DNA of 64,000 nt from an uncultured Actinomycetota bacterium. Its GTDB lineage: Bacteria > Actinomycetota > Thermoleophilia > RBG-16-64-13. Numbering within the stretch: position 1 is the first letter of the stretch; each line of letters starts with the position of its first letter. Shown here piece after piece: positions 5,154 to 52,054 of this stretch. The DNA is taken from the NCBI GenBank assembly GCA_963843455.1, contig CAWJKE010000006.1, positions 5,510 to 69,509 of the forward strand. The letters run 5' to 3'. The notes under the pieces are model-generated. The model made no database searches. It saw only the letters and a program-made list of their open reading frames with translations, and was not told the origin of the DNA. The position numbers and the translations under genes are program-made.

Positions 5154-5302
5154 CCCCCGGGCCGGTCGGCGCCGGCATGCCGAGAGAGTGGCCGTCTTCG
5201 CTTGACTCCCCGACCGTTGGCGTTCAGAGTGGGCGGCAGGAAGGTGAGCGGCGGCCGCCGGAGGGTGGTCTCCCACAAACGTCGCGACGGTGCGGGGGTG
5301 AG

Positions 5303-6022: not shown

Positions 6023-6046
6023 TCTCGGACGGGAGGTAGTCGCCCC

Positions 6047-7750: not shown

Positions 7751-9036
7751 TCTTCGCCGTGCGAGGTCGGTGAGGCGATGCCGCGCCGCGTCTCCGTCAG
7801 TGCCGTCGGCTCGAGTTCCGGACTTCCGGGCGCAAAACCGGCCGCCTTGGAGCCGTACCACGCGGCCACCGGCCCGGCCGAGATACCGTGAAGGACAACG
7901 CTCAACAAGATGGTCCAGCCCGCGGTGGCGGCAAGCAGTGACGTTTCGATGCCGGCCTCACTCAGAGACTGGAGAGCGAGGATCAGGAACACGACGCTGG
8001 CCAAGCCACGAGGGCCGAACCAGCCGACGAACAACACGGTCGACCAGTGCATCTTCTTGCCGAGAAGCGAAAGGGCCACCGCCGCCATCCGTACTACGGT
8101 CAGGCTCAACAGCGCATAGACGATCGGTTGCCACCCAAGTCCGTCGGAAAGCACGAGTGGCGCGATGGCTGCCCCGAAGATGAACCAGACGACAAAAGTG
8201 AGGAGGACGCCCGTCTTCTCCGCATATCGGACTGCCTCAGTCGCCGTCTGATGGTTCACGGCGCCGAAGGCGATGCCGCCGACGAAGGCCGCGATGAACC
8301 CGTTGCCCTCCAGGGCGAGGGCGCCGCCGTAGGCCAGCAGTGCGAACGCGAAAGCCGCGAATTGGCGCGAGGCCGCGGTGGACCACTTCCGGCTCGCGGA
8401 CAGGCGCATCAGGTAGCCGCCGACGGCACCGACGGCGATCCCGACGCCCACCCCGATGGCCATCTCCTCGATGGCCGTGACGACGGGACTCCCGGTGTGC
8501 TCGGCCTCCGCGATCACGATGCCGATGAAGAGCACCACGACCGGAGTCGCTATGCCGTCGTTGAGCCCGCTCTCTACGTTGATCCCGCGGCGGACCCTAT
8601 CGGGCACCCGCGGATTCCTGAACATAGCCAGCCCAAGTGAGAGGTCGGTCGGCGCCAGGATGGAGGCGAGCAGGGCACAGGTGGCGAGGCCGAGCGCAGG
8701 CAGGAGAAGCCAGGCCGAAAGCGCGCCAAAGACTACCGCGAGCGGAAGGCCGACAAAGAGAAGCAGAATGAGGAGCGAAGCATCCCGCCGCAGGGCGCGA
8801 AGGTTGACGCTCGAGGCATCGGAGAAGAGCAAGAGAGCCAATGTTACCCCGGTGATCACGCGCACGAGTTCCGAGGCGGTGGTCGGATCGACCACTGACA
8901 GGCCTCTCGTGCCGAACAGAAAACCGATCAACACGAACACGATGGGTCCGGTCACCAAGAGATGCTCGACCCTCGCGGCCACCAGGGCGTACAAGGCTAT
9001 GAGACCCACCAGCACAAGATACCCAGTCATACCCAT
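7747..9036 (-). CDS. cation:proton antiporter (CPA1, NhaP-type Na+/H+ exchanger)
   Basis: 429 aa polytopic membrane protein with Na_H_Exchanger-like helices; GGGGAGG RBS; stop codon overlaps SulP stop (convergent, shared CTAG). Confidence 0.75.
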   Translation of the reverse strand: MGMTGYLVLVGLIALYALVAARVEHLLVTGPIVFVLIGFLFGTRGLSVVDPTTASELVRVITGVTLALLLFSDASSVNLRALRRDASLLILLLFVGLPLAVVFGALSAWLLLPALGLATCALLASILAPTDLSLGLAMFRNPRVPDRVRRGINVESGLNDGIATPVVVLFIGIVIAEAEHTGSPVVTAIEEMAIGVGVGIAVGAVGGYLMRLSASRKWSTAASRQFAAFAFALLAYGGALALEGNGFIAAFVGGIAFGAVNHQTATEAVRYAEKTGVLLTFVVWFIFGAAIAPLVLSDGLGWQPIVYALLSLTVVRMAAVALSLLGKKMHWSTVLFVGWFGPRGLASVVFLILALQSLSEAGIETSLLAATAGWTILLSVVLHGISAGPVAAWYGSKAAGFAPGSPELEPTALTETRRGIASPTSHGED

Positions 9037-29984: not shown

Positions 29985-31448
29985 ATGAGTGACGACCAAA
30001 AGAAGCTGACCACCAATTTCGGGGTGCCGGTCCCCAACAATCAGGACAGCATGACCGCGGGGCCGCGGGGACCGATGCTGCTGCAGGACGTCTGGTTCCT
30101 GGAGAAGCTGGCCAATTTCGACCGGGAGGTGATACCCGAGCGCCGCATGCACGCCAAAGGCTCCGGCGCCTTCGGCACTTTCACCGTCACCGGCGACATC
30201 ACCAAATACACCAAGGCCAAGCTCTTCTCCGCCGTGGGCAAGAAGACCGACCTCTTCGTACGTTTCTCGACCGTGGCTGGCGAGCGCGGGGCCGCCGACG
30301 CCGAGCGCGACATCCGCGGCTTCGCGGTGAAGCTCTACACCGAGGAAGGCAACTGGGACCTGGTGGGAAACAACACCCCGGTCTTCTTTTTCCGCGATCC
30401 ACTGAAGTTCCCCGACCTCAACCACGCGGTCAAGCGCGATCCTCGTACCAACATGCGCAGCGCGCAGAACAACTGGGACTTCTGGAGCTCGCTTCCGGAG
30501 GCGCTTCATCAGATCACCATCGTCATGAGCGACCGCGGCCTCCCCGCCACCTACCGTCACATGCACGGCTTCGGCAGCCACACGTTCAGCCTCATCAATG
30601 CGGCCGGCGAGCGCCACTGGGTCAAGTTCCACTGGGTCTGCCAGCAGGGCATCAAGACCCTCACCGACGACGAGGCCACCGAGATCGTGGGCAAAGATCG
30701 GGAGAGCCACCAGCGCGACCTCTACGAGGCCATCGAGAACAAGGACTTTCCCAAGTGGAAGCTCTGTGTCCAAGTGATGCCCGAGAGAGACGCGGCCACC
30801 TACAAGTTCCACCCCTTCGACCTCACAAAGGTCTGGCTGCACGGCGACTACCCGGTGACAGAAGTCGGCGTGATGGAGCTCAACAAGAACCCCGAGAACT
30901 ACTTCGCGGAGGTGGAGCAGGCCGCGTTCAACCCGGCCAATATCGTGCCGGGCATCGGCTTCTCGCCGGACAAGATGCTGCAGGGGCGCCTGTTCTCCTA
31001 CGGCGATGCTCAACGTTACCGCCTGGGCGTGAACCACCACCTCATCCCCGTCAATCAGGCCCGCTGCCCGGTGCACGGCTTCAGCCGCGATGGGGCCATG
31101 CGAGTGGACGGCAACTACGGGAGCACGTTGCACTACGAGCCCAACAGCTACGGCCTGTGGCAGGAACAACCGGAGTTCGCCGAGCCGCCGCTCGCGATCA
31201 CGGGTGCCGCCGACCGCTGGGACGCCCGCGCGGATGACAGCGACTACTACACGCAGCCGGGCCTGCTCTTCAACCTCATGGGGCCGGAGAAGCAGCGCGT
31301 GCTGTGCGAGAACACCGGACGCAACCTGACCGGGGTGACCAAGGACGTGCAACTTCGCCACATCCGGAACTGCCTCAAGGCCGATCCGGCCTACGGAGAG
31401 GGAGTGGCGGCCGCTCTCGGCATCCCGATGAGCGAGGTCGACGGGTAG
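29985..31448 (+). CDS. katA: catalase (monofunctional haem catalase, small-subunit clade)
   Basis: 487 aa; RERIPERVVHAKG-like [15 protein letters not shown], distal His/Asn and proximal Tyr context, catalase-wide identity. Confidence 0.95.
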
Positions 31449-35119: not shown

Positions 35120-35701
35120 ATGCCCGCGTCTTCACCCACGACTCCGAACCAACCCGCGTACCACGAGGTGCAGCGTTTCCGCCAGTGGTGGCTGTGGATG
35201 CTCGTCAGCGGGCCCGCTGTGCTCGCCTGGCTTCCATTCATCCAGCAGATCTTACGGGGAGAGCCGGTCGGTCAGAACCCGGCTCCCGATTGGGTGGTGT
35301 GGCTGCTGTGGCTGCTCATCGGACTGGGATTGCCCTTCCTGTTCGGCCGCCTCCGCCTGGTGCTCGAGGTGACCGATGCGGACGTCCTGATCCGCTATCG
35401 TCCTTTCTCGCGCCGTGCGATCCCTCTCTCCGACATCAGCCGGGTCGAGGCCCGCAGCTACAACGCCGTCAAGGAGTACGGGGGCTGGGGCATCAAGGGT
35501 TGGTCCAAGGAGAAGATGGCCTACAACGTGAGCGGCGGCCGGGGCGCGGAGCTGACGTTGCGCGACGGCAGGCAGGTGATGCTCGGGTCTCAGCGAGCGG
35601 ACGAGTTGGCCGCAGCCATCGAGGCGCGGCTGACGAGGGTGGGTACAGCTCGACTGGGGGGGGCGGCTGGATCTTCGGGCGGCCTCCCGAGCACTTCCTG
35701 A
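35120..35701 (+). CDS. hypothetical membrane protein (two TM helices + PH-like soluble domain)
   Basis: 193 aa ORF with WLWMLVSGPAVLAWLPF and WVVWLLWLLIGLGLPFLF helices; no family recognised. Confidence 0.4.
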   Translation: MPASSPTTPNQPAYHEVQRFRQWWLWMLVSGPAVLAWLPFIQQILRGEPVGQNPAPDWVVWLLWLLIGLGLPFLFGRLRLVLEVTDADVLIRYRPFSRRAIPLSDISRVEARSYNAVKEYGGWGIKGWSKEKMAYNVSGGRGAELTLRDGRQVMLGSQRADELAAAIEARLTRVGTARLGGAAGSSGGLPSTS

Positions 35702-35715
35702 CTCCTGGTCCCACC

Positions 35716-36495
35716 ATGGAATCCCCTGTGGAATCTCAGCACTCCAACGCCGGCCGAAGCTCTGTACTCGCGATCGTCCCCGCCCACAACGAGGCCGGAA
35801 GGGTAGGCGCGGTCGTTACGGCGGTGGCCGCCCAGGGACTGCCTGTCCTCGTGGTCGACGACGGCTCCGTAGACGATACCGGAGCCGAAGCCTCCGCCGC
35901 CGGCGCCCAGGTGCTCCGCCTCGAGCCGAACCGAGGGAAAGGCGGGGCGTTGAAGGCGGGTTTTCACGAGGCCCTCGCCATGAGGACCTCGCCGCAGGGG
36001 AGCGCTTCCGGCTGGGCGGCGTTCCTGACCCTCGACGGCGACGGTCAGCACGACCCGGCCGAGATACCGCAATTCCTCGCGGCCTGGGAGCGCTCGGGCG
36101 CGGATCTCGTCGTCGGCATGCGCGATTACGACCAGATGCCCCCGATCCGCTGGTTCACCAACACCGTCAGCCGCCTACTCTTCTCTAAGGCTCTCGGACG
36201 GGGTATCCCCGACAACCAATCCGGCTACCGCCTCCACACACGCCGCATAGCCGAGGCCGCGCTCGCCAGCGAGGAGCAGGGCTTTGCTTTTGAGGTGGAG
36301 GAGATAGCCATCTGCGTCGGGCGAGGCTATGAGCTGGCGTGGGTGCCGATCAAGACCATCTACGGGACCGAGAAGAGCGACATCAAGCCGTGGACGCACG
36401 TCTCCAGCTTCTTGCGGGTCACCCGCCGCGCGCGCAGCCGGATGAGGGCCGAGCGGCGCGCAAGCGCCCGCTCGACCGAGGCGCCCACCGAGTAG
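35716..36495 (+). CDS. family 2 glycosyltransferase (dolichyl/polyprenyl-phosphate sugar transferase-like)
   Basis: VLAIVPAHNEAGRVGAVV...LVVDDGSVDDT...RGKGGALKAGF GT2 motifs; ATG 35716. Confidence 0.8.
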   Translation: MESPVESQHSNAGRSSVLAIVPAHNEAGRVGAVVTAVAAQGLPVLVVDDGSVDDTGAEASAAGAQVLRLEPNRGKGGALKAGFHEALAMRTSPQGSASGWAAFLTLDGDGQHDPAEIPQFLAAWERSGADLVVGMRDYDQMPPIRWFTNTVSRLLFSKALGRGIPDNQSGYRLHTRRIAEAALASEEQGFAFEVEEIAICVGRGYELAWVPIKTIYGTEKSDIKPWTHVSSFLRVTRRARSRMRAERRASARSTEAPTE

Positions 36496-41334: not shown

Positions 41335-41544
41335 TTGCAGGGCCGCATCGAGATAGACGGGGAGCGCTGCAAAGGCTGCCTGTTCTGCATAGAACTGTGT
41401 CCTAAGAAGAGCATCCATCTTTCCGAGGAGCTCAACCTCAAGGGGTATTTCGTCGCCGCCTTTGCCGAGGGCGACGGCTGCAACGGCTGCGGCATCTGCG
41501 CGCTCATGTGCCCCGAAGTCGCCATCGAGGTGGAGAAAGCATGA
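41335..41544 (+). CDS. 2-oxoacid:ferredoxin oxidoreductase delta subunit (2x[4Fe-4S] ferredoxin)
   Basis: 69 aa with two CxxCxxCxxxCP motifs (CKGCLFCIELCP; CNGCGICALMCP). Confidence 0.8.
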   Translation: MQGRIEIDGERCKGCLFCIELCPKKSIHLSEELNLKGYFVAAFAEGDGCNGCGICALMCPEVAIEVEKA

Positions 41545-42614
41545 GGCGCCTCATGAGCGGGAACGCCGCCCTGGCCGAGGCGGCCATTCTTTCCGGCTGC
41601 ACCGCTTATTTCGGCTATCCCATCACGCCCCAGAACGAACTGACGGAGCACATGGCCAGGCGCATGGTCGAATCGGGCGGCGTGTTCATCCAATCGGAGA
41701 GCGAGATCGCCGCAATCAACATGGTGCTCGGAGCATCGGCGGCGGGAGCGCGGGCGATGACCTCGTCGAGCGGCCCCGGCATGAGCCTCAAGCAGGAAGG
41801 GATCTCGTATCTGGTGGCCGACGAGCTTCCTGCCGTCATCGTCAACATGGTGCGGGGTGGCCCCGGCATGGGCAACATCTCGCCCTCTCAGTCGGACTAT
41901 TTCCAGGCGACCCGGGGCGGGGGGCACGGCGACTACAAGACCATCGTCCTCGCCCCCAGTTCGGTGCAGGAACTAACCGAGATCGTTCCCCTCGCCTTCG
42001 AGCTGGCGGACAAATACCGCAACCCCGTTCTCATCCTCGGCGACGGCATGCTGGGGCAGATGATGGAACCGGTCGATTTCGACGGTCTCAAGCGCCCGCC
42101 GGACTACCAGAAGGACTACATCCTCACCGGGGCCAAGCACCGGCCGGCCAGGAGCATCTATTCGCTCATCTTCGACGCCAAGCTTCAGGAAGAGCACAAC
42201 TGGAAGCTCCACCGCAAGTTCCAGCTCATCGAGCAGAACGAAGTCCGCTACGAGACGTACCTCATCGAGGATGCGGAGATGGTCGTGGTGGCCTACGGGA
42301 TGGGGGCACGGATAGCCAAGGGGGCCATCAAGCGGCTGCGCCAAGAGGGGTTGAAAGTCGGCATGCTCCGGCTCGTCACCCTCTGGCCGTTCCCGACAAA
42401 GGTCCTGCAGAACATGAGCGCCACGGCCACCGAGTTCTTCGTTTTTGAGATGAGCGCCGGACAGATGGTGGAAGACGTGAGGCTGGCGCTGGGAGGAAAA
42501 GGGAACGTGCATTTTTACGGAAGACCCGGCGGAGTCATCCCGATGCCTGTCGAGCTCTACAGGATCGTTTCTCGTCACTACTATCAGGCGCTGTCGGCGC
42601 GGGCTGCGAAGTAG
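41541..42614 (+). CDS. 2-oxoacid:ferredoxin oxidoreductase alpha subunit (Por/Kor/Vor A)
   Basis: MSGNAALAEAAILSGCTAYFGYPITPQNEL...GGPGMG typical of POR/KOR alpha; ATG overlaps delta stop (ATGA). Confidence 0.85.
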   Translation: MRRLMSGNAALAEAAILSGCTAYFGYPITPQNELTEHMARRMVESGGVFIQSESEIAAINMVLGASAAGARAMTSSSGPGMSLKQEGISYLVADELPAVIVNMVRGGPGMGNISPSQSDYFQATRGGGHGDYKTIVLAPSSVQELTEIVPLAFELADKYRNPVLILGDGMLGQMMEPVDFDGLKRPPDYQKDYILTGAKHRPARSIYSLIFDAKLQEEHNWKLHRKFQLIEQNEVRYETYLIEDAEMVVVAYGMGARIAKGAIKRLRQEGLKVGMLRLVTLWPFPTKVLQNMSATATEFFVFEMSAGQMVEDVRLALGGKGNVHFYGRPGGVIPMPVELYRIVSRHYYQALSARAAK

Positions 42615-42655
42615 CCATGGGCGGAGAACCAGTCATGTCGGGCGGGGAAGCAGTC

Positions 42656-43468
42656 ATGAAGAGCGTCTACAAGCGGCCTAAGCTCCTCAAGGAGGCGCAC
42701 TTCCACTACTGTCCGGGCTGCGGTCACGGCATCATCAACCGGCTGCTCATGGAAGTCATCGAGGAGATGGATCTGGCGGACGAGGCCATCTGTGTAGCGC
42801 CCGCCGGCTGCGGCATGCTCCTCTACAACTACTTCGATATCGATGTGATCGAGTCGGCGCATGGCCGGGGCTCGGCGGTGGCGACGGGCATCAAACGGGT
42901 CCGGCCCCAGAACCTGGTGTTCTCGTACCAAGGCGACGGCGACCTGGCCGCCATCGGTACGGCCGAGGGCTTCCACGCGGCCAACCGGGGCGAGAACATC
43001 ACTGTGATCTTCGTGAATAACGGCGTCTACGGTATGACCGGTGGGCAGATGGCGCCGACCAGCCTGATCGATCAGGTCACCACGACCTCGCCCTTGGGGA
43101 GGGATTCTGATCTGGCCGGTCACCCAGTGCGCATCTGCGAAGTGTTCTCCATGCTGGACGGGACGGCGTACCTGGAGCGGGTAGCCGTCAATAAGCCCGC
43201 GGGCGTCATCAAGACGAAGAAAGCCATCCGCAAAGCCTTTCAGCGGCAGATCGACGGCGCCGGCTTCTCCCTGGTGGAGATCCTCTCGCCCTGTCCCACC
43301 GCTTGGAAGATGGGCACCCTCGAGTCCTGCACCTGGGTGGACGAGGTCATGACCAAAGTGTTCCCGCTGGGGGTGGTCAAGGACGTGACGCGCGCCGCGG
43401 ACGCGGGTGTCGCGGGTTCCGGCGCGCCGGAACCGACGCCGCGCTCCGAGGAGGCGGCATGCTCCTAA
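42656..43468 (+). CDS. 2-oxoacid:ferredoxin oxidoreductase beta subunit (TPP-binding)
   Basis: HYCPGCGHG [4Fe-4S]/TPP motif, GDGD, VNNGVYGMTGGQ; ATG 42656 after GGGGAAG (track begins 42617). Confidence 0.85.
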   Translation: MKSVYKRPKLLKEAHFHYCPGCGHGIINRLLMEVIEEMDLADEAICVAPAGCGMLLYNYFDIDVIESAHGRGSAVATGIKRVRPQNLVFSYQGDGDLAAIGTAEGFHAANRGENITVIFVNNGVYGMTGGQMAPTSLIDQVTTTSPLGRDSDLAGHPVRICEVFSMLDGTAYLERVAVNKPAGVIKTKKAIRKAFQRQIDGAGFSLVEILSPCPTAWKMGTLESCTWVDEVMTKVFPLGVVKDVTRAADAGVAGSGAPEPTPRSEEAACS

Positions 43469-43998
43469 AGACGTTGTTCTCGGGATTCGGAGGACAGGGC
43501 GTGCTTTCCATGGGCACGACGCTGGCGACGGCCGCCATGCTCGAGGGCAAATACGTCACCTTCTTCCCTGCCTATGGGGTAGAGGTGCGAGGCGGCACGG
43601 CGAATTGCACGGTGGTGGTCTCCGACGAGGAGATCGCCTCACCGGTGGCCTCCGATCCCGAGTTCGTCGTTGCCATGAACCAGCCCTCGTTCGCCCGCTT
43701 TCAGAGCATCCTGCAGGCCGGCGGACTGCTGTGCGTGAACTCATCGTTGGTGAACACCGAGACGGCCAGGAGCGACATCGAGATCCTGGCCATCCCCACG
43801 AGCGAACTGGCGGAAGGGCTCGGGACCATCAAGGTCGCGAATATGATCCTTCTTGGCGCCCTGGTTCGGGCCAGCAACATGATCTCCTATGATCAGATGC
43901 AGGAGAATCTCGCCGAGATACTCGGCGAGGGCAAGGCCAGACTGCTCAAGCTAAACCGGGAAGCGTTGGCTCTCGGCTACAACTACGTTCAGGGGTGA
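43459..43998 (+). CDS. 2-oxoacid:ferredoxin oxidoreductase gamma subunit
   Basis: MLLKTLFSGFGGQGVLSMGT is the gamma-subunit N-terminal signature. Confidence 0.85.
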   Translation: MLLKTLFSGFGGQGVLSMGTTLATAAMLEGKYVTFFPAYGVEVRGGTANCTVVVSDEEIASPVASDPEFVVAMNQPSFARFQSILQAGGLLCVNSSLVNTETARSDIEILAIPTSELAEGLGTIKVANMILLGALVRASNMISYDQMQENLAEILGEGKARLLKLNREALALGYNYVQG

Positions 43999-44512: not shown

Positions 44513-44929
44513 TCAGATGGCCCTCATCCGATTCCCGCGGGCGTTGTGCTCCACCTCCGCCAGCCCAAGGACTTCGAGTACCGGAGGGACGTAGTTGGCG
44601 AAGCGCCCGCGCAACCCCTTCTTGAGCCCGTACCAGCCGCCGACAGGGTTCTGCGCCGACCGGGCCCACGCCTCGACGGTCCCCTCGACGGCGGGCTTCT
44701 GCTCATCCGCGGTCCCCAGCGGCATCCAGTCGCCGTGCGCCTTGAGCATCGCGTGGAGGTCTTCGATCGACCGCAGAAGGTAGCGGACCTCGGTCTTCGC
44801 CGCGATCACCACCAGCGCAGGAGGGTCCGCCTGCTCGTCGCGATAGGCCTCGATCTCCGACTGGCCGCTCGGCGTCTTCAGCAGCCACGGATCCTCGTGT
44901 GTGCCGGTCCCTCTTACATTGTCGGTCAT
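44513..44929 (-). CDS. conserved hypothetical protein (widespread small cytoplasmic family, no name recalled)
   Basis: MTDNVRGTGTHEDPWLLKTPSGQSEIEAYRDEQADPPALV...NPVGGWYGLKKGLRGRFANYVPPVLEVLGLAEVEHNARGNRMRA; start ATG 44929 (track extends to 45127 over neighbouring gene). Confidence 0.55.
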   Translation of the reverse strand: MTDNVRGTGTHEDPWLLKTPSGQSEIEAYRDEQADPPALVVIAAKTEVRYLLRSIEDLHAMLKAHGDWMPLGTADEQKPAVEGTVEAWARSAQNPVGGWYGLKKGLRGRFANYVPPVLEVLGLAEVEHNARGNRMRAI

Positions 44930-44946: not shown

Positions 44947-45606
44947 CTAGATCGTTGCAGGCGGTCCGGCTTCCAGCGGGTCGGCGTCGCAGGTGAGCCT
45001 CCACCAGACCACCCGCGGGGTGAATCGGGTATCCGACCATCCGCGGCCCCGCAACCGCCCGTAGACGAGCAGGAGAGGAACCCCGGCGCCAAGCGCCACT
45101 CGAGCCTTGCCTCGGCCCAGCAGCCATCGCGCGACCGGAAACAGCAGACAGGCCACGAGCACCCCGCGCCCATGCTCTTTCTTGACGGTCGGGACCACCC
45201 AGATCGGCAAGATCACGGCGAACCCGGAAGGATCGGCACCGAGTATCGACCCGGCCAACGTCGCCACTCCTCGGCCCCCGCCGACTGTGATATGCCCTGC
45301 CAGGGGTGCGAGCATGAGTGCGTCGATCGTGATCGGGTCCGCTCCGGCTGCGCGACCCAGCAGGGGAGGCAGAAGGCCCTTGAGGGCGTCAGCGGCGAAC
45401 ACGGCGATGCCGGCCTTCTTTCCCATTACCCGGTAGACGCTGGAGGCCCCCGGGTTCACGACCGCGAGCTTCTGTCGGGACTCCGGTGTCGCAAGCAGCG
45501 CCGCGAGACGGGCCGCAGGGATGCAGCCGCCGGCGAACGCCAGACTCACCGCGCACAGAGACCGCCATAGCGACCAGCGCCGCGAGCTGCTAGCGCGCTT
45601 GCGCAC
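44947..45606 (-). CDS. plsY: glycerol-3-phosphate acyltransferase PlsY (acyl-phosphate dependent)
   Basis: 219 aa, 5 TM; NPGASSVYRVMGKKAGIAVFAADALKG corresponds to PlsY GSGN(x)GATNV...G-KAG motif region. Confidence 0.7.
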   Translation of the reverse strand: MRKRASSSRRWSLWRSLCAVSLAFAGGCIPAARLAALLATPESRQKLAVVNPGASSVYRVMGKKAGIAVFAADALKGLLPPLLGRAAGADPITIDALMLAPLAGHITVGGGRGVATLAGSILGADPSGFAVILPIWVVPTVKKEHGRGVLVACLLFPVARWLLGRGKARVALGAGVPLLLVYGRLRGRGWSDTRFTPRVVWWRLTCDADPLEAGPPATI

Positions 45607-46624
45607 GCGACACCTCTCGCCGCGCGGCTCTGCTCCTTCTCCCGGAGATGATCACTCTCACGCCTATAGCCAAGGCGCCCACGGCGATGGGGATGAGCCA
45701 GGTAAAGATGCGCCACAGAACCAGACTCGACACTCGGATATCCGAGGGCACGCTCGCGCCTATCAGTCCCAGATAGCCGAGCTCCGCGATGCCCGCCCCT
45801 CCTGGAAGCGGCGAGAACGGCATGATCACCTGCAGTGCCGCCTGGGCGATGATCACGGGGAAGAGACCACCCTTGTACCCGAGTGCCATGAGGACGAGCG
45901 GGATGATCGAGAACATGGCCACCCAGTAGACGGCCTGAAGTGTCACCGTGCCGACAATGGCTCTCCAGCCGGAGTGAAGCAAGACCAGGTTGGCCTCGCG
46001 GAAGGAGTCGGTGTACTTTCTCACCCGGCGCGGAAGAAGGCGCATGCCGACCGGCTTCTGGGTCCACAGTCCGGCGATGAGCCAACCGGCTATCACGCCG
46101 ACTATCACGCCGATGAGTACCCATCGCTGCAGGTTTGTCAGCCGGGTACCGATCGCGGGGACGAGGGCCACGGCCGCGACCACGACGAGCAGAGATGTAT
46201 GTATGAGGCCTTTCACGATCACCGCGGACGTCGCCTGTGAAGCGGATAGGCCGGAATAGCGGAGGCGGACGACCTGATAGGGGATCTCGAGACCGCCGAA
46301 CGAGGTCGCGCCGCCAACGAGTAGCGACTCGAAGGCGACGCCGAACACCCCCCAGGTCGAGGCCTTCGGGCAGAGAGAGCGGGCAATCACGACCAGGGTG
46401 AAGGCTTCGGTGAGCAGTACGATGATGAGGCAAAGCCCTGCGAGGGCGAGATATCGGTAGTCGGCGTTGCGAAGATCTGTATGGGCTATCTGCGGTCCCA
46501 AGCGTGAACCGGCGAGAACGATGACCACGGCGGCAGCCGCAAGGCCGGCCACCAGGTTGAGTATCAGGCGGCGCCAGCGGACGACACCCTGGGGCGGCGT
46601 CTCGCTTGAGGCCTCCAGCGCCAT
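45590..46624 (-). CDS. UPF0104 / lysylphosphatidylglycerol-synthase TM-region-like (flippase-like) membrane protein
   Basis: about 344 aa, 8 TM; start ATG 46624 (MALEASSETPPQGVVRWRRLILNLVAGL...) after GGACGAGGG; track ORF extension upstream overlaps GT4 gene. Confidence 0.6.
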   Translation of the reverse strand: MALEASSETPPQGVVRWRRLILNLVAGLAAAAVVIVLAGSRLGPQIAHTDLRNADYRYLALAGLCLIIVLLTEAFTLVVIARSLCPKASTWGVFGVAFESLLVGGATSFGGLEIPYQVVRLRYSGLSASQATSAVIVKGLIHTSLLVVVAAVALVPAIGTRLTNLQRWVLIGVIVGVIAGWLIAGLWTQKPVGMRLLPRRVRKYTDSFREANLVLLHSGWRAIVGTVTLQAVYWVAMFSIIPLVLMALGYKGGLFPVIIAQAALQVIMPFSPLPGGAGIAELGYLGLIGASVPSDIRVSSLVLWRIFTWLIPIAVGALAIGVRVIISGRRSRAARREVSRAQAR

Positions 46625-46695
46625 GTCGCCGCCCTCGTCCGGCGCCTCCAGCTGCCCGGCCCCGGCTGCCGGCGGCGGTTCCACGTTCGCGGTGC

Positions 46696-47917
46696 TCAGG
46701 CCCTCACCACCCCGGCGAGCAACTCCCGATACTGTCTGCCCACTACCGCGGGGGCGTGCCGCGATAGGGTGAACTCCCGGGCTCTCTCTCCCATGGCCGT
46801 CCGGGCCTCGGGGCTCAACGAGAGCAGCCGGCGCAGAGCCTCCGCTACTTCCTCGCTCGAATCCCCTGCTGGGATGATGCCTGTCTCGCCATTCTTCACA
46901 CTCTCCGGCGCACCTCCCGACCGGCCGGCAAGGACCGGCAGCCGGGCCAGAGAGGCTTCGGCGAAGACGATGCCGAACCCCTCCACCTCCAGGCCGCCCC
47001 AGCGGGTGCGACAGGGGCAGGCAAAGATATCGGCGGCTTTCAGCCATGGCTTCAGTTCCTCGGCGTTCAGCGCTCCCGTCATCAATACCCGTTCCTTGAC
47101 CCCGAGCGAGACCGCCAGGTGCTCCAGCCGCCCGGCGATGCGTCCGTCGCCTATGACTCCGAGATGCAGCCGAGGGTACTCGTCGCGCAAGATGGCGAGA
47201 GACTCGATGAGCCGATCCTGGCCTTTGCGCGGGACCAGACGGCCGATGATGATGACGAGCTCCCCGTCGATGCCCAGCTCCGCCTTGGCCTGAGCCTTGC
47301 TGGGCCACGGGGGCAGACTGAAGGCCCCATCGAGAGGAGGCCTAAGTGTCACTGCCGGGACTCTTCCTCGGACCTCTCGAGAGGCGGTCGCGGCGGTGAA
47401 ATCGCTCACAGTTGCCAGCAGAGCGGCGTTACCGAGGACGTGCCGCAGAAGGCTGGAACCGATGGGCATGGCCGCTGGGACGGTCACCTCGGCTCCCCCC
47501 AGGAACACGATGTAAGGGAGGCCGGTTCGCTTGGAGATCCGGGGCCCGAGCAGCCCGGTGGGCAGCGGGTGGCCGAACTGGACCAGCTGGAGTTCGTGTT
47601 CTTCGATGAGCTCGAGGGAGAGCCGCAACAGACCGCGGCTCGGGCGAAGCTGCTCCAGCGGGTACCGGTGGACTGTGTAGGGATGGGTGGCGTCGAAGTC
47701 CTGGCCGCCGGGCTGATTCGGCGCGATGATGACGACGTCGGACGGGTCGAGCGTTTGGATGAGCCCCCAGTAGTACGACTGGGCGCCGCCGATCCTGGGG
47801 GGAAAATCGTTGGTGATGAACAGAGAGCGGGGTACTTTGGTTGCGTCGCTCGTTGGCCGCACCCCCGGGCGGGATGCGGATATCTGCTCGCTGCCACTCG
47901 TTAAGTGCTGCTGCACC
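46696..47917 (-). CDS. GT4 family glycosyltransferase (PimA/PimB'-like mannosyltransferase type)
   Basis: N-terminal LFITNDFPPRIGGAQSY motif characteristic of actinobacterial PimB-like GT4 enzymes, C-terminal EX7E-type region (EGFGIVFAEA); GTG start 47917 after GGGGGAAGG. Confidence 0.75.
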
Positions 47918-48049
47918 GGCCTTCCCCCACGGGTGACTCTGCTGTCGCCCGTCCAGTATAGGGGTTCAGGAGGCTTCCCCGCAAAGCGACGGAGTTGTAG
48001 CATGGTAGCGACGTCCTGGGTTATCAGGCGAACAACCTCCGGAGGCGGC

Positions 48050-49480
48050 ATGGCAGTTGGCGTAGGGAGGCTCAAACAGCGCTCGACGGAGTTCGCGCTT
48101 GGGGAGATGCTCAAGCTGCTCAGTTCCAACCCCGAGAAGAACCTCGTCCGGATGGCGCGGCTCGCGGAGACGCTCGGCACGAGCGAGTATCAAAGGCATA
48201 ATGCCAGGGTATGGCGGGAGTACTTCGAGACCGCCCTGCAGGAGGACCCGCCGCCGCCGGCCATGCAGCTCGTGCTCCGCGCTATCCACAGCACCTCATC
48301 GCGTTGCCTCTCCCGGACCGTCTCGAATCTGGTGGTGAATTCCCTGTGGCAGGGCGGAGCAAAACGGAGCGCCTGGGAGCGGGCCAACGAGGCGAAAGCC
48401 CCCTTCATCATCCTGATGAGCCCTACCATGCGCTGCAATCTCGATTGCGTCGGATGCTATGCCGGCGAATACGACCAAAAGGACGACCTCCCGATAGAAG
48501 TCATCGAGAGGATCGTATCCGAAGGCCGGCAACTTGGAATCCACGCGTTCACGCTGCTCGGCGGCGAGCCGTTCGTGCGAAGAGACGTGCTCGACCTGCT
48601 CGAGCGTAATTCGGATTGCGATTTTCTGGTGTTCACCAACGGGACACTGATCGACGAGACGGTGGCGGCGCGGCTGGCAAAGGCGGCCAATGTAGCCGTC
48701 TGCTTCAGCATCGACGGGTGCGAGGCCACCAACGACGCGCGGCGGGGCCCGGGGGCGCTACAGCGCACCGAGCGGGGTATGGCGTTGCTGCGTGCGAAGA
48801 AGATACCGTTTGGCTTCTCCACCATGATCACCAGCAAGAACTACGTCGAGGCGACGAGCGACGCGTTCTGTGACTACCTCATAGGGCAGGGCTGCCTCTT
48901 TGGATTCCATTTCCTTTACATGCCGGTGGGGGCCGCTCCCGACCTGGATCTCATGCCCACGCCCGAGCAGCGTGAGTACCTGCGCATCAACGGCGCCGAG
49001 CGCATCCGCAGCGAGAAGGCCCTGTTCGTCATGGATTTCTGGAACGACGCGCCTCACGTCGGCGGCTGTATCGCCGGCGGCCGGGCCTATCTTCACATCA
49101 CGTCCACTGGTGACGTGGAACCCTGCATCTTCACCCACTTCGCCGTGGACAACATCAAGGAAAAGCCCCTGAGCGAGGTGCTGAAGTCGCCGTTCTTCCG
49201 CGCCATCCAGACCAGACAGCCCTTCAGCGACAACCTGCTACGGCCTTGCATGCTCATAGACGAGCCGCACGTGATCAGGGACATCGTGTGCAGCACCGGA
49301 GCCCACCCGACACATCCCGGCGCGGACGACATGATCACGTCGTACGCCGACGCGATCGATGTCTACGCGGCCGAGTTCAAGACCGTCGCCGATGTCGCCT
49401 GGCAGAACATGCGGCCGCACGAGGTGCCCTACGGGACGCCGGCGGAGGACGCCGGCGAATACGTGACCGCGGCGCGATAG
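48050..49480 (+). CDS. radical SAM enzyme with about 190-aa N-terminal extension and Cys-containing C-terminal domain (function unknown)
   Basis: ATG 48050 after GGAGGCGG. CxxxCxxC motif in SPTMRCNLDCVGCYAGEY at about residue 195, GGEPF, and four spaced Cys in the last 120 aa. Transcribed divergently from the GT4/PlsY cluster. Confidence 0.8.
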   Translation: MAVGVGRLKQRSTEFALGEMLKLLSSNPEKNLVRMARLAETLGTSEYQRHNARVWREYFETALQEDPPPPAMQLVLRAIHSTSSRCLSRTVSNLVVNSLWQGGAKRSAWERANEAKAPFIILMSPTMRCNLDCVGCYAGEYDQKDDLPIEVIERIVSEGRQLGIHAFTLLGGEPFVRRDVLDLLERNSDCDFLVFTNGTLIDETVAARLAKAANVAVCFSIDGCEATNDARRGPGALQRTERGMALLRAKKIPFGFSTMITSKNYVEATSDAFCDYLIGQGCLFGFHFLYMPVGAAPDLDLMPTPEQREYLRINGAERIRSEKALFVMDFWNDAPHVGGCIAGGRAYLHITSTGDVEPCIFTHFAVDNIKEKPLSEVLKSPFFRAIQTRQPFSDNLLRPCMLIDEPHVIRDIVCSTGAHPTHPGADDMITSYADAIDVYAAEFKTVADVAWQNMRPHEVPYGTPAEDAGEYVTAAR

Positions 49481-49525: not shown

Positions 49526-50812
49526 CTACTTCACTGCGTACAGGTACCCGTCAAGGCTTCCGGCGTAGACTGTTCCACCCGCGACCGTCAGGGCCCCTGA
49601 GACTTCGCCGCCGAGCTTGAACTTCCACGCTTGCTGCCCTGTCTGAGAATCGACGGCATACAGGTTGAAGTCGAGCCCGCCGATGTACACGAGGTTGTCG
49701 GAGACCACCGGTGAACACTCGAGGTCGTTCTCGGTCTGGAACTTCCACTTCTGTTGCCCGGTCCGCGCGTCCACTGCGTAGAGGTAGTTGTCGCGGCTGC
49801 CCACATAGACTGTGCCGTTCGAGACCGCGGGAGACGAGACGATGCCGTCGCCGGTCTTGAAGGTCCATTTCGGTTTGCCGGTCTGCGCATCCACCGCGTA
49901 CAGGAGGGTATCGTAGCTTCCCACGTATACGACCCCGTCAGAGATCGAGGGAGTGGACCAGATGACGGCCCCGGTCGGCAGTTTCCACTTCTCCCCGCCG
50001 GTCTGAGCATCTACGGCGTGAAGAGCCTTGTCTGCGCCGCCAAAGTACACCACGCCCCCCGAGACTGCGGGGGAGGAGTTGACGGCGTGGCCACCGCTCG
50101 CTTTCCACTTCTCCGTGCCGGTCTGCGCGTCCACCGCATAGAGATAGCCATCCCCGCTACCCACATAGACGACCCCGTCCACGATCACCGGTGCCGTGAC
50201 GATCCCGTACAGCGTCTTGAACTTCCACTTCTCGGTGCCGTTCTGTATGTCCAGGGCGTAGAGAAAGGCATCGTCGCTCCCAAAATAGACCGCGCCGTTC
50301 CAGACAGTCGGTGAAGACCAGACGGGTCTTCCGGTCTTGAAGGCCCACTTCTGCTGCCCGTTCTGGATATCGACCGCGTAGAAGTAGTTGTCGGCAGCTC
50401 CGAAGTAGGCCACCCCGCTGTAGACCGCGGGCGAAGACCAGGGCACACCCTTGATGGTGTCTATGTTGGGGAACTTCCAGAGAACGCCGCTCACCTGGGT
50501 CGGGCCGCCGCTCGGATAGATCCCCGTCCGCTCAGCGTTTGCCCTGTAGGTCGCGGCGCCGGCGTCCGGCGGGCTCGTGACGCCCGGGGCCAGCGTCGTC
50601 ACCGTAGTCGACGGCGTCGTCGAGGGGGGCGTCGAGGTCGTCGTGCTCTTCTGAAAGAGGGAGAAGGAGCAGCCGGTCAGGGATATCGTCAGCGAAAGCA
50701 GGACGACTATCGACAGCAAGAGCACGACGACCTTGGTGGACTTCACGGTGGAACGGTACCTCCTCTGCGCGGTCAGGGATATCGGTATAACACCTAGCGC
50801 ACGCTTCAACAA
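49526..50812 (-). CDS. PQQ-like beta-propeller repeat lipoprotein (BamB/YVTN-like)
   Basis: Signal/lipobox LTISLTGCSF, then 8 repeats of G-x-VY-x-GS-x-D-x-LYA-x-D-x-TG-x-KW-x-F; start uncertain (50812 TTG or internal GTG). Confidence 0.75.
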   Translation of the reverse strand: MLKRALGVIPISLTAQRRYRSTVKSTKVVVLLLSIVVLLSLTISLTGCSFSLFQKSTTTSTPPSTTPSTTVTTLAPGVTSPPDAGAATYRANAERTGIYPSGGPTQVSGVLWKFPNIDTIKGVPWSSPAVYSGVAYFGAADNYFYAVDIQNGQQKWAFKTGRPVWSSPTVWNGAVYFGSDDAFLYALDIQNGTEKWKFKTLYGIVTAPVIVDGVVYVGSGDGYLYAVDAQTGTEKWKASGGHAVNSSPAVSGGVVYFGGADKALHAVDAQTGGEKWKLPTGAVIWSTPSISDGVVYVGSYDTLLYAVDAQTGKPKWTFKTGDGIVSSPAVSNGTVYVGSRDNYLYAVDARTGQQKWKFQTENDLECSPVVSDNLVYIGGLDFNLYAVDSQTGQQAWKFKLGGEVSGALTVAGGTVYAGSLDGYLYAVK

Positions 50813-50848: not shown

Positions 50849-52054
50849 TCAGGAGGGGGTCGACTCCTCACGGTCGGCCGGCTCGGACCGCTCGTTTTGA
50901 GACTCCGGCGTCGGTGCGCGGTCGGAGCTATTCACCGGCTGACTCCGGGTCGGCCGCAGGGGGATGGGCACTATAGGGCGAGGCGTGTCGGCCGTCTCCA
51001 GTGCTGCCGCAACGGTCGGACTGCCCGAGACTGCCGCCTCTTCGAGTGCAGGTTCTGCCGCTTGCATGGGCTCCGACGCGGGCTCCGGCAGGGGCTCCGC
51101 CCTCACTTCCGGCTCGGGGGCGACCGCCGCGGCGGTCGCCGGCGGCGAAGACGGGGTCGGCTGCGCCTCTCCGGCCGGCTGCGCCGCTCCGGGCGGCTCA
51201 GGCGCGGGCTTCCGCCGGCGCCGGCGAAGGATGAGGACCAGGATGATCACCAGACCGGCGATGATTGCGACTCCGAGGATGACCGTGCCCGCGATGGCGC
51301 CCCAGTTGTAGATGGTGCTCGTGGCCTGCATCTCCTTGCTGCCGGACGTTCCCACGTTCCAGACCAGCGTGTTCCCACGCACCTCATCCGCATTGTTGTC
51401 CTTGAGCGTGCCCGGAAGCGTCACCCGGTTTTCGATTGTGAGGACCGTGCCCAGAACACCCTGCGCAAGCCCGGCTGCCGACTGGCCGCGGGATGTCACC
51501 GAACCGGCGTCCGCAGTCGCGGAGTACCGGGTCTTGCTGGTGAAGAAACCGTTGTCCTGGGTCAGGGAGAACTTGTCCGTAGCGATGATAGTGGAGAGGA
51601 ATCGCCCGGAGAGGATCTGTTGCAGCTCTTCCGGATTTGCGAATGGGCGCGTCACGCTGATCCAACGGGCACCCGATGAATCGGTGCCTCTTTCGACCTT
51701 CCAATCGCTCGGGATCTGACCCAAGACCAGATTGAAAAGGTCATCTACGGTCGTCGGCAGTCCCCCGCCGAGGCCGCCCAGGTCTCCCAGGATGCCCAGA
51801 ATCCCTCCCACCTGGCCCCCCACGCCATCGACCACCCCGGAGAGTGCATCCTGCAGTTCTTTGTCGGCCGCGAGCCGCATGCCCACCGTGCCCGATGTAT
51901 CCGCGTTGACGTTGGTGTCGACTCCGGTCTGGACCGTGCATCCGGAAAAAAACATCAGGCCCGCGAGCAGGACGATGATCAGACCGGCCGACGCTACGAG
52001 CGCGGGTCTGACCCGGCGAGCGTCGCTCAGCAGAGACGGTGCTGGCTTGTTCAC
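50849..52054 (-). CDS. hypothetical membrane-anchored protein (LppM/DUF3153-like?) with Pro/Ala-rich tail
   Basis: N-terminal TM/lipobox FFSGCTV, soluble domain, second TM (ILGVAIIAGLVIILVLILRRRRRK) and PAPEPPGAAQPAGEAQP low-complexity C-terminus. Confidence 0.45.
   Translation of the reverse strand: MNKPAPSLLSDARRVRPALVASAGLIIVLLAGLMFFSGCTVQTGVDTNVNADTSGTVGMRLAADKELQDALSGVVDGVGGQVGGILGILGDLGGLGGGLPTTVDDLFNLVLGQIPSDWKVERGTDSSGARWISVTRPFANPEELQQILSGRFLSTIIATDKFSLTQDNGFFTSKTRYSATADAGSVTSRGQSAAGLAQGVLGTVLTIENRVTLPGTLKDNNADEVRGNTLVWNVGTSGSKEMQATSTIYNWGAIAGTVILGVAIIAGLVIILVLILRRRRRKPAPEPPGAAQPAGEAQPTPSSPPATAAAVAPEPEVRAEPLPEPASEPMQAAEPALEEAAVSGSPTVAAALETADTPRPIVPIPLRPTRSQPVNSSDRAPTPESQNERSEPADREESTPS

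What the first reader, a model, noticed from the sequence alone, without database searches (positions are those of the whole stretch)
44947..49480. Radical SAM enzyme with long N-terminal extension divergent from a PlsY / flippase-like / PimB-like GT4 lipid cluster: candidate membrane-lipid-modifying radical SAM
PlsY (acyl-phosphate:G3P acyltransferase), a UPF0104/LPG-synthase-TM-like protein and a PimB-like GT4 glycosyltransferase form a minus-strand operon. A 476-aa radical SAM gene is transcribed from the shared 132-bp divergent promoter. Its CxxxCxxC motif sits about 195 residues from the N-terminus, behind an unassigned domain, and four spaced Cys in the C-terminus could ligate an auxiliary cluster. 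Radical SAM enzymes recently shown to act on membrane lipids (archaeal Tes/GDGT-MAS, bacterial membrane-spanning lipid synthase, ring synthases) are encoded next to core lipid genes in this way. The context points to a lipid or glycolipid substrate rather than a peptide or cofactor.
Basis: inference. Interest (0 to 1): 0.7.

Follow-up and report, generated by a model that had tools for sequence, protein, structure and literature searches.

The report
Bacterial membrane-spanning-lipid synthase homologue beside glycolipid genes
The radical SAM gene most likely belongs to the known bacterial Mss family, enzymes that weld two fatty-acid tails together to make membrane-spanning lipids; here it sits back-to-back with a small lipid/glycolipid operon in an uncultured actinobacterium, so it is a sensible new member of a known kind, not a new kind of enzyme.

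Summary
On the minus strand lie a PimB'-like GT4, an LPG_synthase_TM flippase-like protein and a divergent PlsY-like acyltransferase. A 476-aa radical SAM gene is transcribed divergently across 133 bp. Two details are wrong: CxxxCxxC is at residues 129-136, not about 195, and only three C-terminal Cys are conserved, not four.

The rSAM belongs to a large, well-conserved family (38-58% identity over the full length to the named homologues compared). All six sequence blocks published for the bacterial membrane-spanning lipid synthase Mss match it. So does the unusual taxonomic spread reported for Mss: Clostridia, Dictyoglomi, Thermotogota, Coriobacteriia, Chloroflexota, Zixibacteria, Omnitrophota, Woesearchaeota. 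In 33 of 79 genome loci its neighbours include PlsA/Ger-type modules, PlsC, DegV, lipid A-type acyltransferases, GT2/GT4 or B12-rSAMs.

It is not a close relative of Tes/GDGT-MAS, a Gms/AhbD-type enzyme or a peptide maturase. I could not compare it directly with the two tested Mss proteins, because their sequences were not retrievable.

The GT4-flippase-PlsY arrangement is kept only in one narrow Actinomycetota clade: six loci, rSAM at least 71% identical.

This is a new member of a known kind, of moderate interest.

The parts
44513..44929 (-). DUF6855 gene (138 aa), a possible fifth gene at the 3' end of the minus-strand operon
   Evidence: Pfam DUF6855 scores 215 bits. It starts 18 nt after the PlsY-like stop. 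It lies directly downstream of the PlsY-like gene in L091, L092 and L093, about 1.8 kb away in L010, and is absent in L001 and L002.
44947..45606 (-). Divergent PlsY-like acyltransferase (219 aa; an alternative GTG start is at 45549)
   Evidence: Pfam G3P_acyltransf scores 68 bits, but the NCBIfam PlsY equivalog scores 55 against a cut-off of 137. It matches Aquifex PlsY (5xj5) at E = 6.5e-9, with GSGNVGATNVTR changed to AVVNPGASSVYR and GGKGVAT changed to GGRGVAT.
45590..46624 (-). Flippase-like membrane protein (LPG_synthase_TM / UPF0104, 344 aa from ATG 46624). It has no aminoacyl-PG synthase domain.
   Evidence: Pfam scores 73 bits and TIGR00374 scores 59.5 (cut-off 43.2). The bifunctional MprF model scores only 21 bits against 600. 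Start codons were scanned.
46696..47916 (-). PimB'-like GT4 glycosyltransferase (406 aa from GTG 47916, or 388 aa from GTG 47862)
   Evidence: Matches PDB 3oka/3okc PimB' at E = 1.1e-50 over residues 30-399. Pfam Glycos_transf_1 scores 120 bits.
47917..48049 (.). Divergent intergenic region with conserved blocks: AGTATA at 47955-47960 (TATACT on the minus strand, -10-like for the operon), CTTCCCCGCAAAG at 47974-47986, TAGCAT at 47998-48003 (-10-like for the rSAM), and GGAGG at 48041-48045
   Evidence: The blocks are invariant in the alignment of the window with L001, L002 and L010. The consensus scan found no sigma-70 match in this region, so the promoter roles are inferred.
48050..49480 (+). 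Radical SAM enzyme, 476 aa, Mss-type (inferred membrane-spanning lipid synthase)
   Evidence: Pfam Radical_SAM and SPASM both hit. No NCBIfam model reaches its cut-off. The structure model has pLDDT 87.6.
48050..48388 (+). N-terminal all-helical domain (residues 1-113), typical of the family, with no Pfam match
   Evidence: The model shows five helices and no strands. Across 391 family members the median position of CxxxCxxC is residue 122. The best PDB matches align about 240-300 of the 476 residues; which segment that is, and so whether this domain goes unmatched, was not read out.
48434..48457 (+). Radical SAM cluster motif C129-N-L-D-C133-V-G-C136 (the CNxxCxGC form)
   Evidence: At least 99% conserved in 397 members. 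It matches Mss 'Block I'.
49067..49249 (+). Twitch-like auxiliary-cluster region: C340-X13-G354-X4-C359 (DVEPC) and C400 (RPC). The CX2CX5CX3C half of a full SPASM motif is absent.

Best explanation
The 476-aa radical SAM protein is a member of the bacterial Mss (membrane-spanning lipid synthase) family.

Inferred mechanism:
- The CNxxCxGC cluster cleaves SAM. The resulting 5'-deoxyadenosyl radical abstracts a hydrogen from the omega or omega-1 carbon of an acyl chain of a membrane glycerolipid.
- The lipid radical is parked on the single auxiliary [4Fe-4S] cluster, held by C340, C359, C400 and an unknown fourth ligand.
- A second SAM turnover activates the tail of a lipid from the opposite leaflet. 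The two tails are joined by a C-C bond, giving a diabolic-acid-type bolaform lipid that spans the membrane.
- The family-typical helical N-terminal domain probably forms or caps the hydrophobic lipid pocket.

The operon, with lower confidence: the divergently transcribed operon supplies or decorates the lipids in this Actinomycetota clade. It comprises a PimB'-like GT4, a flippase-like UPF0104 protein, a divergent PlsY paralogue and perhaps DUF6855. The PlsY-like enzyme would acylate a glycerol phosphate, the GT4 would add a hexose head group on the cytoplasmic face, and the flippase-like protein would move that head group to the outer leaflet. A bolaform lipid needs a head group on both sides.

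What is shown: gene identities, family conservation, motif match, and neighbourhood statistics.
What is inferred: the chemistry, the substrate, and the functional coupling to the operon.
For: - Family size and conservation: more than 4,300 90%-identity clusters score E <= 1e-5, and the best 120 listed cover most of the protein's length. Pairwise identities are 45% to Dictyoglomus turgidum WP_012584072.1 (E = 7.5e-135), 43% to Clostridium tetanomorphum, 38% to Halothermothrix orenii, and 39-43% to Thermotogota.
- All six blocks described for T. ethanolicus and T. maritima Mss are present in order: CNxxCxGC; GGE plus F and N; N..S..G..RRG.G; G.S..N..W..P..QR; DF, Y.H.N among Gly, VEPC.F; three Pro plus Cys.
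- The family occurs in the phyla reported for Mss, including the odd ones: Coriobacteriia, Halanaerobiales, Dictyoglomi, Zixibacteria, Omnitrophota, Patescibacteria and Woesearchaeota.
- C. ljungdahlii, C. sporogenes, C. tetanomorphum and Hathewaya limosa are listed as carrying Mss and Ger homologues. Each has a member of this family (L074, L018, P0321, L036).
- Neighbours in 79 genome loci: DUF2229/HGD-D (PlsA/Ger-type) in 9, GT2 directly upstream in 10, GT4 in 6, B12-rSAM in 9, Lip_A_acyltrans in 5, PlsC in 3, DegV in 3. At least one of these is present in 33 of 79 loci. Patatin plus DegV flank the gene in L003, and LPG_synthase_TM in L005.
- Six Cys are conserved in at least 99% of members. 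That fits one RS cluster plus one 3-Cys auxiliary cluster, as in the cluster-assisted C-C coupling shown for Tes and postulated for Mss.
- The rSAM is monocistronic, with no co-oriented small ORF.
- The four-gene arrangement and the intergenic motifs are conserved in six related loci.
Against: - I could not compare the protein directly with the two experimentally tested Mss proteins (WP_129545148.1, WP_004080829.1). A Thermotogota-profile search did not list T. maritima among its best 120 hits.
- The match to the published blocks rests on a verbal description.
- The Trp of Block IV, present in 95% of the family, is Phe in this clade.
- The 64-kb window holds no Ger/PlsA-type gene, PlsC or DegV.
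- A catalase lies 17 kb away, whereas Mss activity was seen only anaerobically.
- In Clostridia, an Mss homologue did not always coincide with detected membrane-spanning lipids.
- PlsY-like and flippase-like neighbours are confined to one narrow clade, plus L005 for the flippase-like gene. The link to the operon could therefore be a lineage accident.
Confidence: 0.75

Rival explanations
1. The rSAM is Mss-type, but its position next to the GT4-flippase-PlsY operon is a lineage-specific accident. The operon would make an ordinary actinobacterial glycolipid (PIM-like or glycosyl-diacylglycerol) unrelated to membrane-spanning lipids.
For: Outside the narrow clade, no locus of 88 has a PlsY-like neighbour, and only L005 has a flippase-like one. 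In 9 other Actinomycetota loci the homologue sits between thrS and infC/rplT, a housekeeping context. PimB'-type GT4s are common in Actinobacteria.
Against: The arrangement and the intergenic sequence blocks persist down to 71% rSAM identity and 66-72% PlsY-like identity. Glycosyltransferases (GT2 or GT4) recur next to family members in 16 unrelated loci. An LPG_synthase_TM gene recurs independently in L005.
Confidence: 0.3
2. The protein is a lipid-modifying rSAM of this family but catalyses something other than intermolecular tail-to-tail coupling. Examples are an intramolecular macrocyclisation or a Gms-like mid-chain bridge.
For: Gms is also an AhbD-like SPASM/twitch rSAM with an N-terminal extension of about 100 aa that forms a lipid tunnel, the same type of architecture as here. 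The best NCBIfam matches are AhbD and NirJ2. This clade replaces the family's conserved Trp286 with Phe.
Against: The AhbD model scores only 93 bits against a cut-off of 500, whereas Gms is 36% identical to AhbD at E = 7e-79. Bacterial Gms homologues are reported in Acidobacteria, Planctomycetes and candidate phyla, not in Clostridia, Dictyoglomi or Thermotogota. Only one auxiliary-cluster Cys set is conserved, while AhbD has two auxiliary clusters according to a reference title listed.
Confidence: 0.1
3. The protein is a peptide (RiPP) maturase or a cofactor-biosynthesis SPASM enzyme (heme AhbD/NirJ, PqqE, mycofactocin type) that merely lies near lipid genes.
For: The nearest solved structures are peptide-modifying enzymes: SkfB, SuiB, anSME and CteB. 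NCBIfam lists AhbD, NirJ, MftC and other maturases as weak hits. In L005 a homologue lies downstream of heme genes.
Against: Every NCBIfam hit is 3- to 10-fold below its cut-off. No precursor-sized co-oriented ORF is present, because the gene is monocistronic between a divergent promoter and a convergent gene. The N-terminal domain is all-helical, unlike an RRE. The CX2CX5CX3C part of SPASM is missing. The family's neighbours are lipid genes, not peptides or transporters.
Confidence: 0.04

Closest known systems
Mss, bacterial membrane-spanning lipid synthase (Thermoanaerobacter ethanolicus WP_129545148.1; Thermotoga maritima Tmari_0825 / WP_004080829.1; Sahonero-Canavesi et al. 2022, PMC13159169)
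   Same: All six published sequence blocks are present, including CNxxCxGC and VEPC. The phylum distribution of homologues is the same. PGAP gives the same name, 'radical SAM protein'. Family members cluster with PlsA/Ger-type genes. The expected chemistry is tail-to-tail C-C coupling of acyl chains.
   Different: Direct identity to the tested enzymes is unknown. The Block IV Trp is replaced by Phe. The gene is in an uncultured Actinomycetota lineage and lies divergent from a PimB'-like GT4 / flippase-like / PlsY-like operon. I did not find that context described in the papers I read. No Ger homologue is in the window.
Tes / GDGT-MAS, archaeal tetraether synthase (PDB 7TOL/7TOM)
   Same: It is a radical SAM enzyme acting on lipid tails. 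It has an auxiliary [4Fe-4S] cluster with three Cys ligands that is proposed to hold the first lipid radical. The mechanism probably works the same way.
Gms, archaeal GMGT synthase (AhbD-like rSAM with an N-terminal COG4001 extension; PMC11214058)
   Same: It combines a SPASM/twitch-type core with an N-terminal extra domain of about 100-120 aa, thought to form a lipid tunnel.
   Different: Gms is 36% identical to AhbD, whereas this protein scores 93 bits on the AhbD model (cut-off 500). The taxonomic range differs. COG4001 membership could not be tested.
Twitch/SPASM peptide-modifying rSAMs (SkfB 6efn, SuiB 5v1q, anSME 4k36)
   Different: Identity is about 20%. There is no RRE, no precursor gene and no second auxiliary cluster, and the N-terminal domain is different.
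PimB' (3OKA), MprF flippase domain (LPG_synthase_TM) and PlsY (5XJ5), for the three operon genes
   Same: The GT4 aligns with PimB' over its full length at E = 1e-50. The flippase-like protein passes the TIGR00374 cut-off. The PlsY-like protein passes the Pfam cut-off and keeps the DxxKG and GH..GG(K/R)GVAT motifs.
   Different: No NCBIfam equivalog cut-off is reached for any of the three. The flippase-like protein lacks the MprF synthase domain. The PlsY-like protein has substitutions in the GSGNxGATN motif.

Membership tests
Mss (bacterial membrane-spanning lipid synthase) | Block I: radical SAM motif extended to CNxxCxGC | tested here: met
   C129-N-L-D-C133-V-G-C136. The Cys are at least 99% conserved in 397 members, and N130 and G135 are invariant in A1.
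Mss (bacterial membrane-spanning lipid synthase) | Blocks II-VI as described: GGE plus F/N; N, S, Gly-rich with Arg; G, S, N, E, Trp, then P, Q, R; D next to F, Y/H/N among Gly, VEPC, P-C-F; three Pro plus Cys | tested here: met
   The residues are G171-G-E-P with F192 and N197; N214, S220, G223, R231-R232-G233 and G235; G255, S257, N264, position 286, P292, Q307 and R308; D329-F330, Y347, H349, V-E-P-C359 and F361; P381, P391 and P399-C400. One deviation: W286, found in 95% of the family, is F here. The comparison is with a verbal description, not with the sequences.
Mss (bacterial membrane-spanning lipid synthase) | Operational criterion of the authors: at least 30% identity and E <= 1e-50 to T. 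ethanolicus or T. maritima Mss | not testable with these tools
   Neither sequence could be retrieved. The supplements gave accessions only.
Mss (bacterial membrane-spanning lipid synthase) | Homologue distribution reported for Mss (Clostridia, Halanaerobiales, Thermotogae, Dictyoglomi, Coriobacteriia, Chloroflexi, Atribacterota, Zixibacteria, Omnitrophica, DPANN Woesearchaeota and others) | tested here: met
   Four Clostridiaceae species listed as carrying Mss and Ger each have a family member.
Mss (bacterial membrane-spanning lipid synthase) | Genomic association with the ether-lipid enzyme Ger (modified PlsA) | tested here: inconclusive
   DUF2229/HGD-D genes lie downstream of family members in 9 of 79 loci, but none is in this 64-kb window. 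The rest of the genome was not available.
Mss (bacterial membrane-spanning lipid synthase) | Activity: formation of diabolic or iso-diabolic acids under anoxic conditions | not testable with these tools
   This needs an experiment.
Tes / GDGT-MAS | Full-length homology to MJ0619 or MA_1486 | tested here: not met
Tes / GDGT-MAS | Four metallocentres: RS, N-terminal and C-terminal [4Fe-4S] clusters plus a rubredoxin-like Fe | tested here: not met
   Only six Cys are conserved in the family, and the N-terminal domain has no conserved Cys. The architecture of Tes is described.
Gms (GMGT synthase) | Strong similarity to AhbD (36% identity, E = 7e-79) | tested here: not met
   NCBIfam AhbD TIGR04545 scores 92.9 bits against a cut-off of 500.
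Gms (GMGT synthase) | N-terminal COG4001 domain of about 100 aa | tested here: inconclusive
   A 113-aa helical N-terminal domain exists, but no COG library was available and Pfam finds nothing there.
SPASM peptide maturases / anSME | Seven-Cys SPASM motif with two auxiliary clusters | tested here: not met
   Only CX13GX4C plus one further Cys is conserved. CX2CX5CX3C is absent.
SPASM peptide maturases / anSME | Adjacent precursor peptide and/or an RRE domain | tested here: not met
   No co-oriented small ORF is present, and the gene lies between a divergent promoter and a convergent PQQ-repeat gene. The N-terminal domain has no strands.
PlsY (acyl-phosphate:G3P acyltransferase) | Curated equivalog score | tested here: not met
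   TIGR00023 scores 55.2 bits against a cut-off of 137.2. Pfam family membership is met, at 68 bits against 24.1.
PimB' (GT4 phosphatidylinositol-mannoside mannosyltransferase) | Full-length homology to a characterised PimB' | tested here: met
   3oka/3okc match at E = 1.1e-50, residues 30-399 against 6-375. Donor and acceptor were not tested.
MprF | Flippase domain fused to an aminoacyl-PG synthase domain | tested here: not met
   Only the LPG_synthase_TM domain is present. The bifunc_MprF model scores 21 bits against a cut-off of 600.

The most novel reading that the evidence does not exclude
The locus of four or five genes is a dedicated cassette for glycosylated membrane-spanning (bolaform) lipids in an uncultured soil or sediment Actinomycetota lineage. 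A specialised PlsY paralogue would make the precursor pool, a PimB'-like GT4 would add the head group, a UPF0104 flippase would place head groups on both faces, and a Trp-to-Phe variant of Mss would fuse the tails. That would make this lineage a previously unrecognised source of brGDGT-like or diabolic-acid glycolipids. It would also give the first genetic link between an Mss enzyme and head-group or flippase functions.
Probability: 0.2. Interest if true: 0.6.

Novelty: new member of a known kind. Interest (0 to 1): 0.4.

Why it matters
Membrane-spanning bacterial lipids (diabolic acids, brGDGTs) are widely used palaeoclimate proxies, yet their source organisms in soils, peat and anoxic waters are still largely unknown. 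Published surveys already flag Actinobacteriota as abundant carriers of Mss homologues. This locus is a concrete, cloneable example. Its conserved neighbours (glycosyltransferase, flippase-like protein, PlsY paralogue) suggest which head groups and precursor pools such an organism might use. The family-wide neighbourhood survey (GT2 or GT4 in 16 loci, PlsA/Ger-type genes, B12-rSAMs, acyltransferases) also supplies testable candidates for missing steps of bacterial tetraether biosynthesis. It does not reveal a new kind of enzyme.

Tried and rejected
- Retrieving the tested Mss sequences. I used three homologue searches (own protein, a Dictyoglomota member, a Thermotogota profile), one genome scan, one cluster look-up, and the supplements of four papers. 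Only accessions (WP_129545148.1, WP_004080829.1) and a verbal motif description came back.
- Tes/GDGT-MAS membership: rejected on sequence and fold.
- Gms/AhbD: rejected on the weak AhbD score.
- RiPP maturase: rejected because there is no precursor, no RRE and no full SPASM motif.
- The afdb50 fold library was unavailable.
- An exact-sequence look-up of the window's rSAM found nothing on record.
- The sigma-70 consensus scan found no promoter in the intergenic region. The -10-like hexamers I report come from conservation only.
- A wider search for PlsY-like or flippase-like neighbours with an HMM/phmmer over all loci found none beyond the close clade and L005.
- The ATG at 48003(-) was considered as the GT4 start. 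I rejected it because relatives carry indels that are not multiples of three in that stretch.

Full report
**What is in the sequence.** Window 44.5-49.5 kb holds a minus-strand gene string and a divergent plus-strand gene.

- The rSAM runs 48050..49480 (476 aa). Its ATG is preceded by GGAGG at 48041-48045. The longer 556-aa ORF from TTG 47810 overlaps the divergent gene and is not used by relatives.
- Pfam finds Radical_SAM (65 bits) and SPASM (31 bits) in the rSAM.
- The three minus-strand genes are a PlsY-like protein (G3P_acyltransf, 68 bits), an LPG_synthase_TM protein (73 bits; TIGR00374 'flippase-like domain' 59.5 bits against a cut-off of 43.2) and a GT4 (Glycos_transf_1, 120 bits).
- The GT4 aligns over its whole length with Corynebacterium PimB' (3oka, E = 1.1e-50).
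- The start-codon scan gives GTG 47916 or 47862 for the GT4, ATG 46624 for the flippase-like gene, and GTG 45606 or 45549 for the PlsY-like gene. The intergenic region is therefore 133 bp (reader: 132). The PlsY-like start overlaps the flippase-like stop.

**Corrections to the observation.**

- CxxxCxxC lies at residues 129-136 of the 476-aa protein.
- In an alignment of 397 family members, six Cys are conserved in at least 99%: C129, C133, C136, C340, C359 and C400.
- The C-terminal pattern is C340-X13-G-X4-C359 plus C400. That is a twitch-like half of a SPASM domain with a single auxiliary cluster.
- 'PlsY' holds at family level only. The NCBIfam equivalog scores 55 bits against 137. Against Aquifex PlsY the GSGNVGATNVTR motif reads AVVNPGASSVYR.

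**What the rSAM is not.**

- No NCBIfam model comes near its cut-off. The best are AhbD and NirJ2, at 93 bits against 500.
- Against PDB sequences the best hits are generic (BlsE, 4e-9). GDGT-MAS reaches only E = 2.6e-3, over the RS core alone.
- A confident AlphaFold model (pLDDT 87.6) shows a five-helix N-terminal domain (residues 1-113), the RS core and a twitch-like C-terminal part.
- Tes has four metallocentres, and this family conserves Cys for two. So it is not a Tes-family member.
- Gms is described as 36% identical to AhbD with a COG4001 extension. The AhbD score here is far too weak for that.
- A RiPP role is unlikely. The gene is monocistronic, nothing precursor-like is co-oriented, and the N-terminal domain has no strands, so it is not an RRE.

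**What it is.**

- The protein belongs to a very large family; the best 120 hits listed cover most of its length.
- Named members include Coriobacteriia, Chloroflexota, Clostridium sporogenes, C. ljungdahlii, C. tepidum, Hathewaya limosa, Halothermothrix orenii, Dictyoglomus turgidum, Thermotogota (Athalassotoga, Mesoaciditoga), Caldisericia, Synergistaceae, Nitrospirota, Desulfobacterota, Zixibacteria, Omnitrophota, Patescibacteria, Planctomycetota and Woesearchaeota.
- Identity to the window protein is 45% for D. turgidum, 43% for C. tetanomorphum and 38-43% for H. orenii and Thermotogota, all at E <= 1e-114.
- The preprint's supplement describes six conserved Mss blocks in words. Every one is found, in order, among the invariant columns of my alignments.
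- Four Clostridiaceae species listed in 2026 as carrying Mss and Ger homologues each carry a member of this family.
- I could not obtain the sequences of the two experimentally tested enzymes. The authors' own criterion, at least 30% identity and E <= 1e-50, therefore remains untested, and this is the main gap.

**Neighbourhoods.**

- The exact arrangement (GT4, flippase-like, PlsY-like, divergent rSAM) recurs in L001 (84% rSAM identity by BLASTP), L002 (71%), L010 (85%), L089 and L091/L092 (90-91%).
- The intergenic region keeps invariant blocks: AGTATA (TATACT on the operon strand), CTTCCCCGCAAAG and TAGCAT. I read these as two facing -10 elements and a possible operator, but that is inference. 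The sigma-70 scan found nothing there.
- Outside this clade no PlsY-like neighbour occurs, and a flippase-like one occurs only in L005.
- Other lipid genes take their place. Patatin and DegV flank the gene at 57% identity, and ABC1/UbiB kinases flank two 45-47% homologues.
- In 79 species-level loci the recurrent neighbour families are DUF2229/HGD-D (PlsA/Ger-type, 9 loci), GT2 directly upstream (10), B12-binding rSAM (9), GT4 (6), lipid A-type acyltransferase (5), PlsC (3) and DegV (3). Thirty-three of 79 loci have at least one of these.
- Nine Actinomycetota loci instead place the gene between thrS and infC/rplT.
- So the family is lipid-linked, but this particular operon link is clade-specific.

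**Mechanism (inferred).** I follow the cluster-assisted coupling shown for Tes and postulated for Mss. The RS cluster makes 5'-dA radical, which abstracts a terminal or sub-terminal hydrogen from an acyl chain. The radical adds to a sulfide of the 3-Cys auxiliary cluster. A second SAM activates the tail of a second lipid, which displaces the cluster and forms the C-C bond. The helical N-terminal domain is a family feature (median CxxxCxxC position 122) and is the obvious candidate for the lipid pocket. The clade-specific W286F change in Block IV might tune chain specificity. The operon could supply a precursor (PlsY paralogue), add a hexose (PimB'-like GT4) and flip head groups (UPF0104).

**Caveats from the window.** No Ger/PlsA, PlsC or DegV homologue lies within 64 kb. 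A catalase at 29985..31448 sits alongside a 2-oxoacid:ferredoxin oxidoreductase, which hints at an aerotolerant anaerobe. Mss homologues do not always coincide with detectable membrane-spanning lipids.

**Verdict.** This is an uncharacterised actinobacterial member of the known Mss family in a gene context I did not find described in the papers read. Interest is moderate, at 0.4.

Noticed in passing
window 44513-44929 (-): A DUF6855 gene (138 aa, 215 bits) starts 18 nt after the PlsY-like stop on the same strand, so it is a possible fifth operon gene. It lies directly downstream of the PlsY-like gene in L091, L092 and L093, about 1.8 kb away in L010, and is absent in L001 and L002.
   Followed up: partly
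window 29985-31448 (+) and 41508-43998 (+): A catalase (639 bits) lies in the same window as a 2-oxoacid:ferredoxin oxidoreductase operon and an oxygen-sensitive Mss-type rSAM. This suggests an aerotolerant or microaerobic lifestyle rather than strict anaerobiosis.
   Followed up: no
window 35185-36495 (+): A GT2 glycosyltransferase is 34% identical to the GT2 that sits immediately upstream of (and overlaps) Mss homologues in 10 deltaproteobacterial loci.
   Followed up: partly
L033, L040, L041, L065, L067, L078, L080 and others (around 4000-9000 in each locus): In Desulfobacterota-type genomes the rSAM family sits in GT2 - rSAM - DUF2229/HGD-D (PlsA/Ger-like) clusters. These often also hold a B12-binding rSAM, a lipid A-type acyltransferase, a polysaccharide deacetylase and an ATP-grasp protein. 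Together they look like a candidate bacterial tetraether-lipid gene cluster.
   Followed up: partly
L025, L026, L057, L063, L064, L069, L072, L081, L083: In nine Actinomycetota loci, including Ca. Hydromicrobium, the rSAM homologue is inserted between thrS and infC/rplT, a conserved housekeeping context with no lipid genes.
   Followed up: no
L061 7328-8539 (+): In a Dictyoglomota genome, an Fe-ADH_2 protein lies 11 nt downstream of the rSAM homologue. This is the family that includes sn-glycerol-1-phosphate dehydrogenases.
   Followed up: no
window 47955-48003: Three intergenic sequence blocks are invariant across four relatives: AGTATA, CTTCCCCGCAAAG and TAGCAT. The 13-mer could be a regulator binding site. 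No regulator gene is adjacent in this window; TetR or MerR genes flank more distant homologues (L003, L006).
   Followed up: partly
window 49526-50812 (-) and 50849-52054 (-): Convergent with the rSAM is a secreted PQQ-repeat beta-propeller protein (PQQ_2, 168 bits). Next to it is a 401-aa protein with a Pro/Ala-rich C-terminus and no Pfam match. A fragment of the PQQ-type gene is also next to the rSAM in L002.
   Followed up: no
window rSAM residue 286 (nt 48905-48907): The Trp conserved in 95% of the family (Mss 'Block IV' tryptophan) is Phe in this clade. Other clade-specific departures are P324A, N351T and R387Q.
   Followed up: partly
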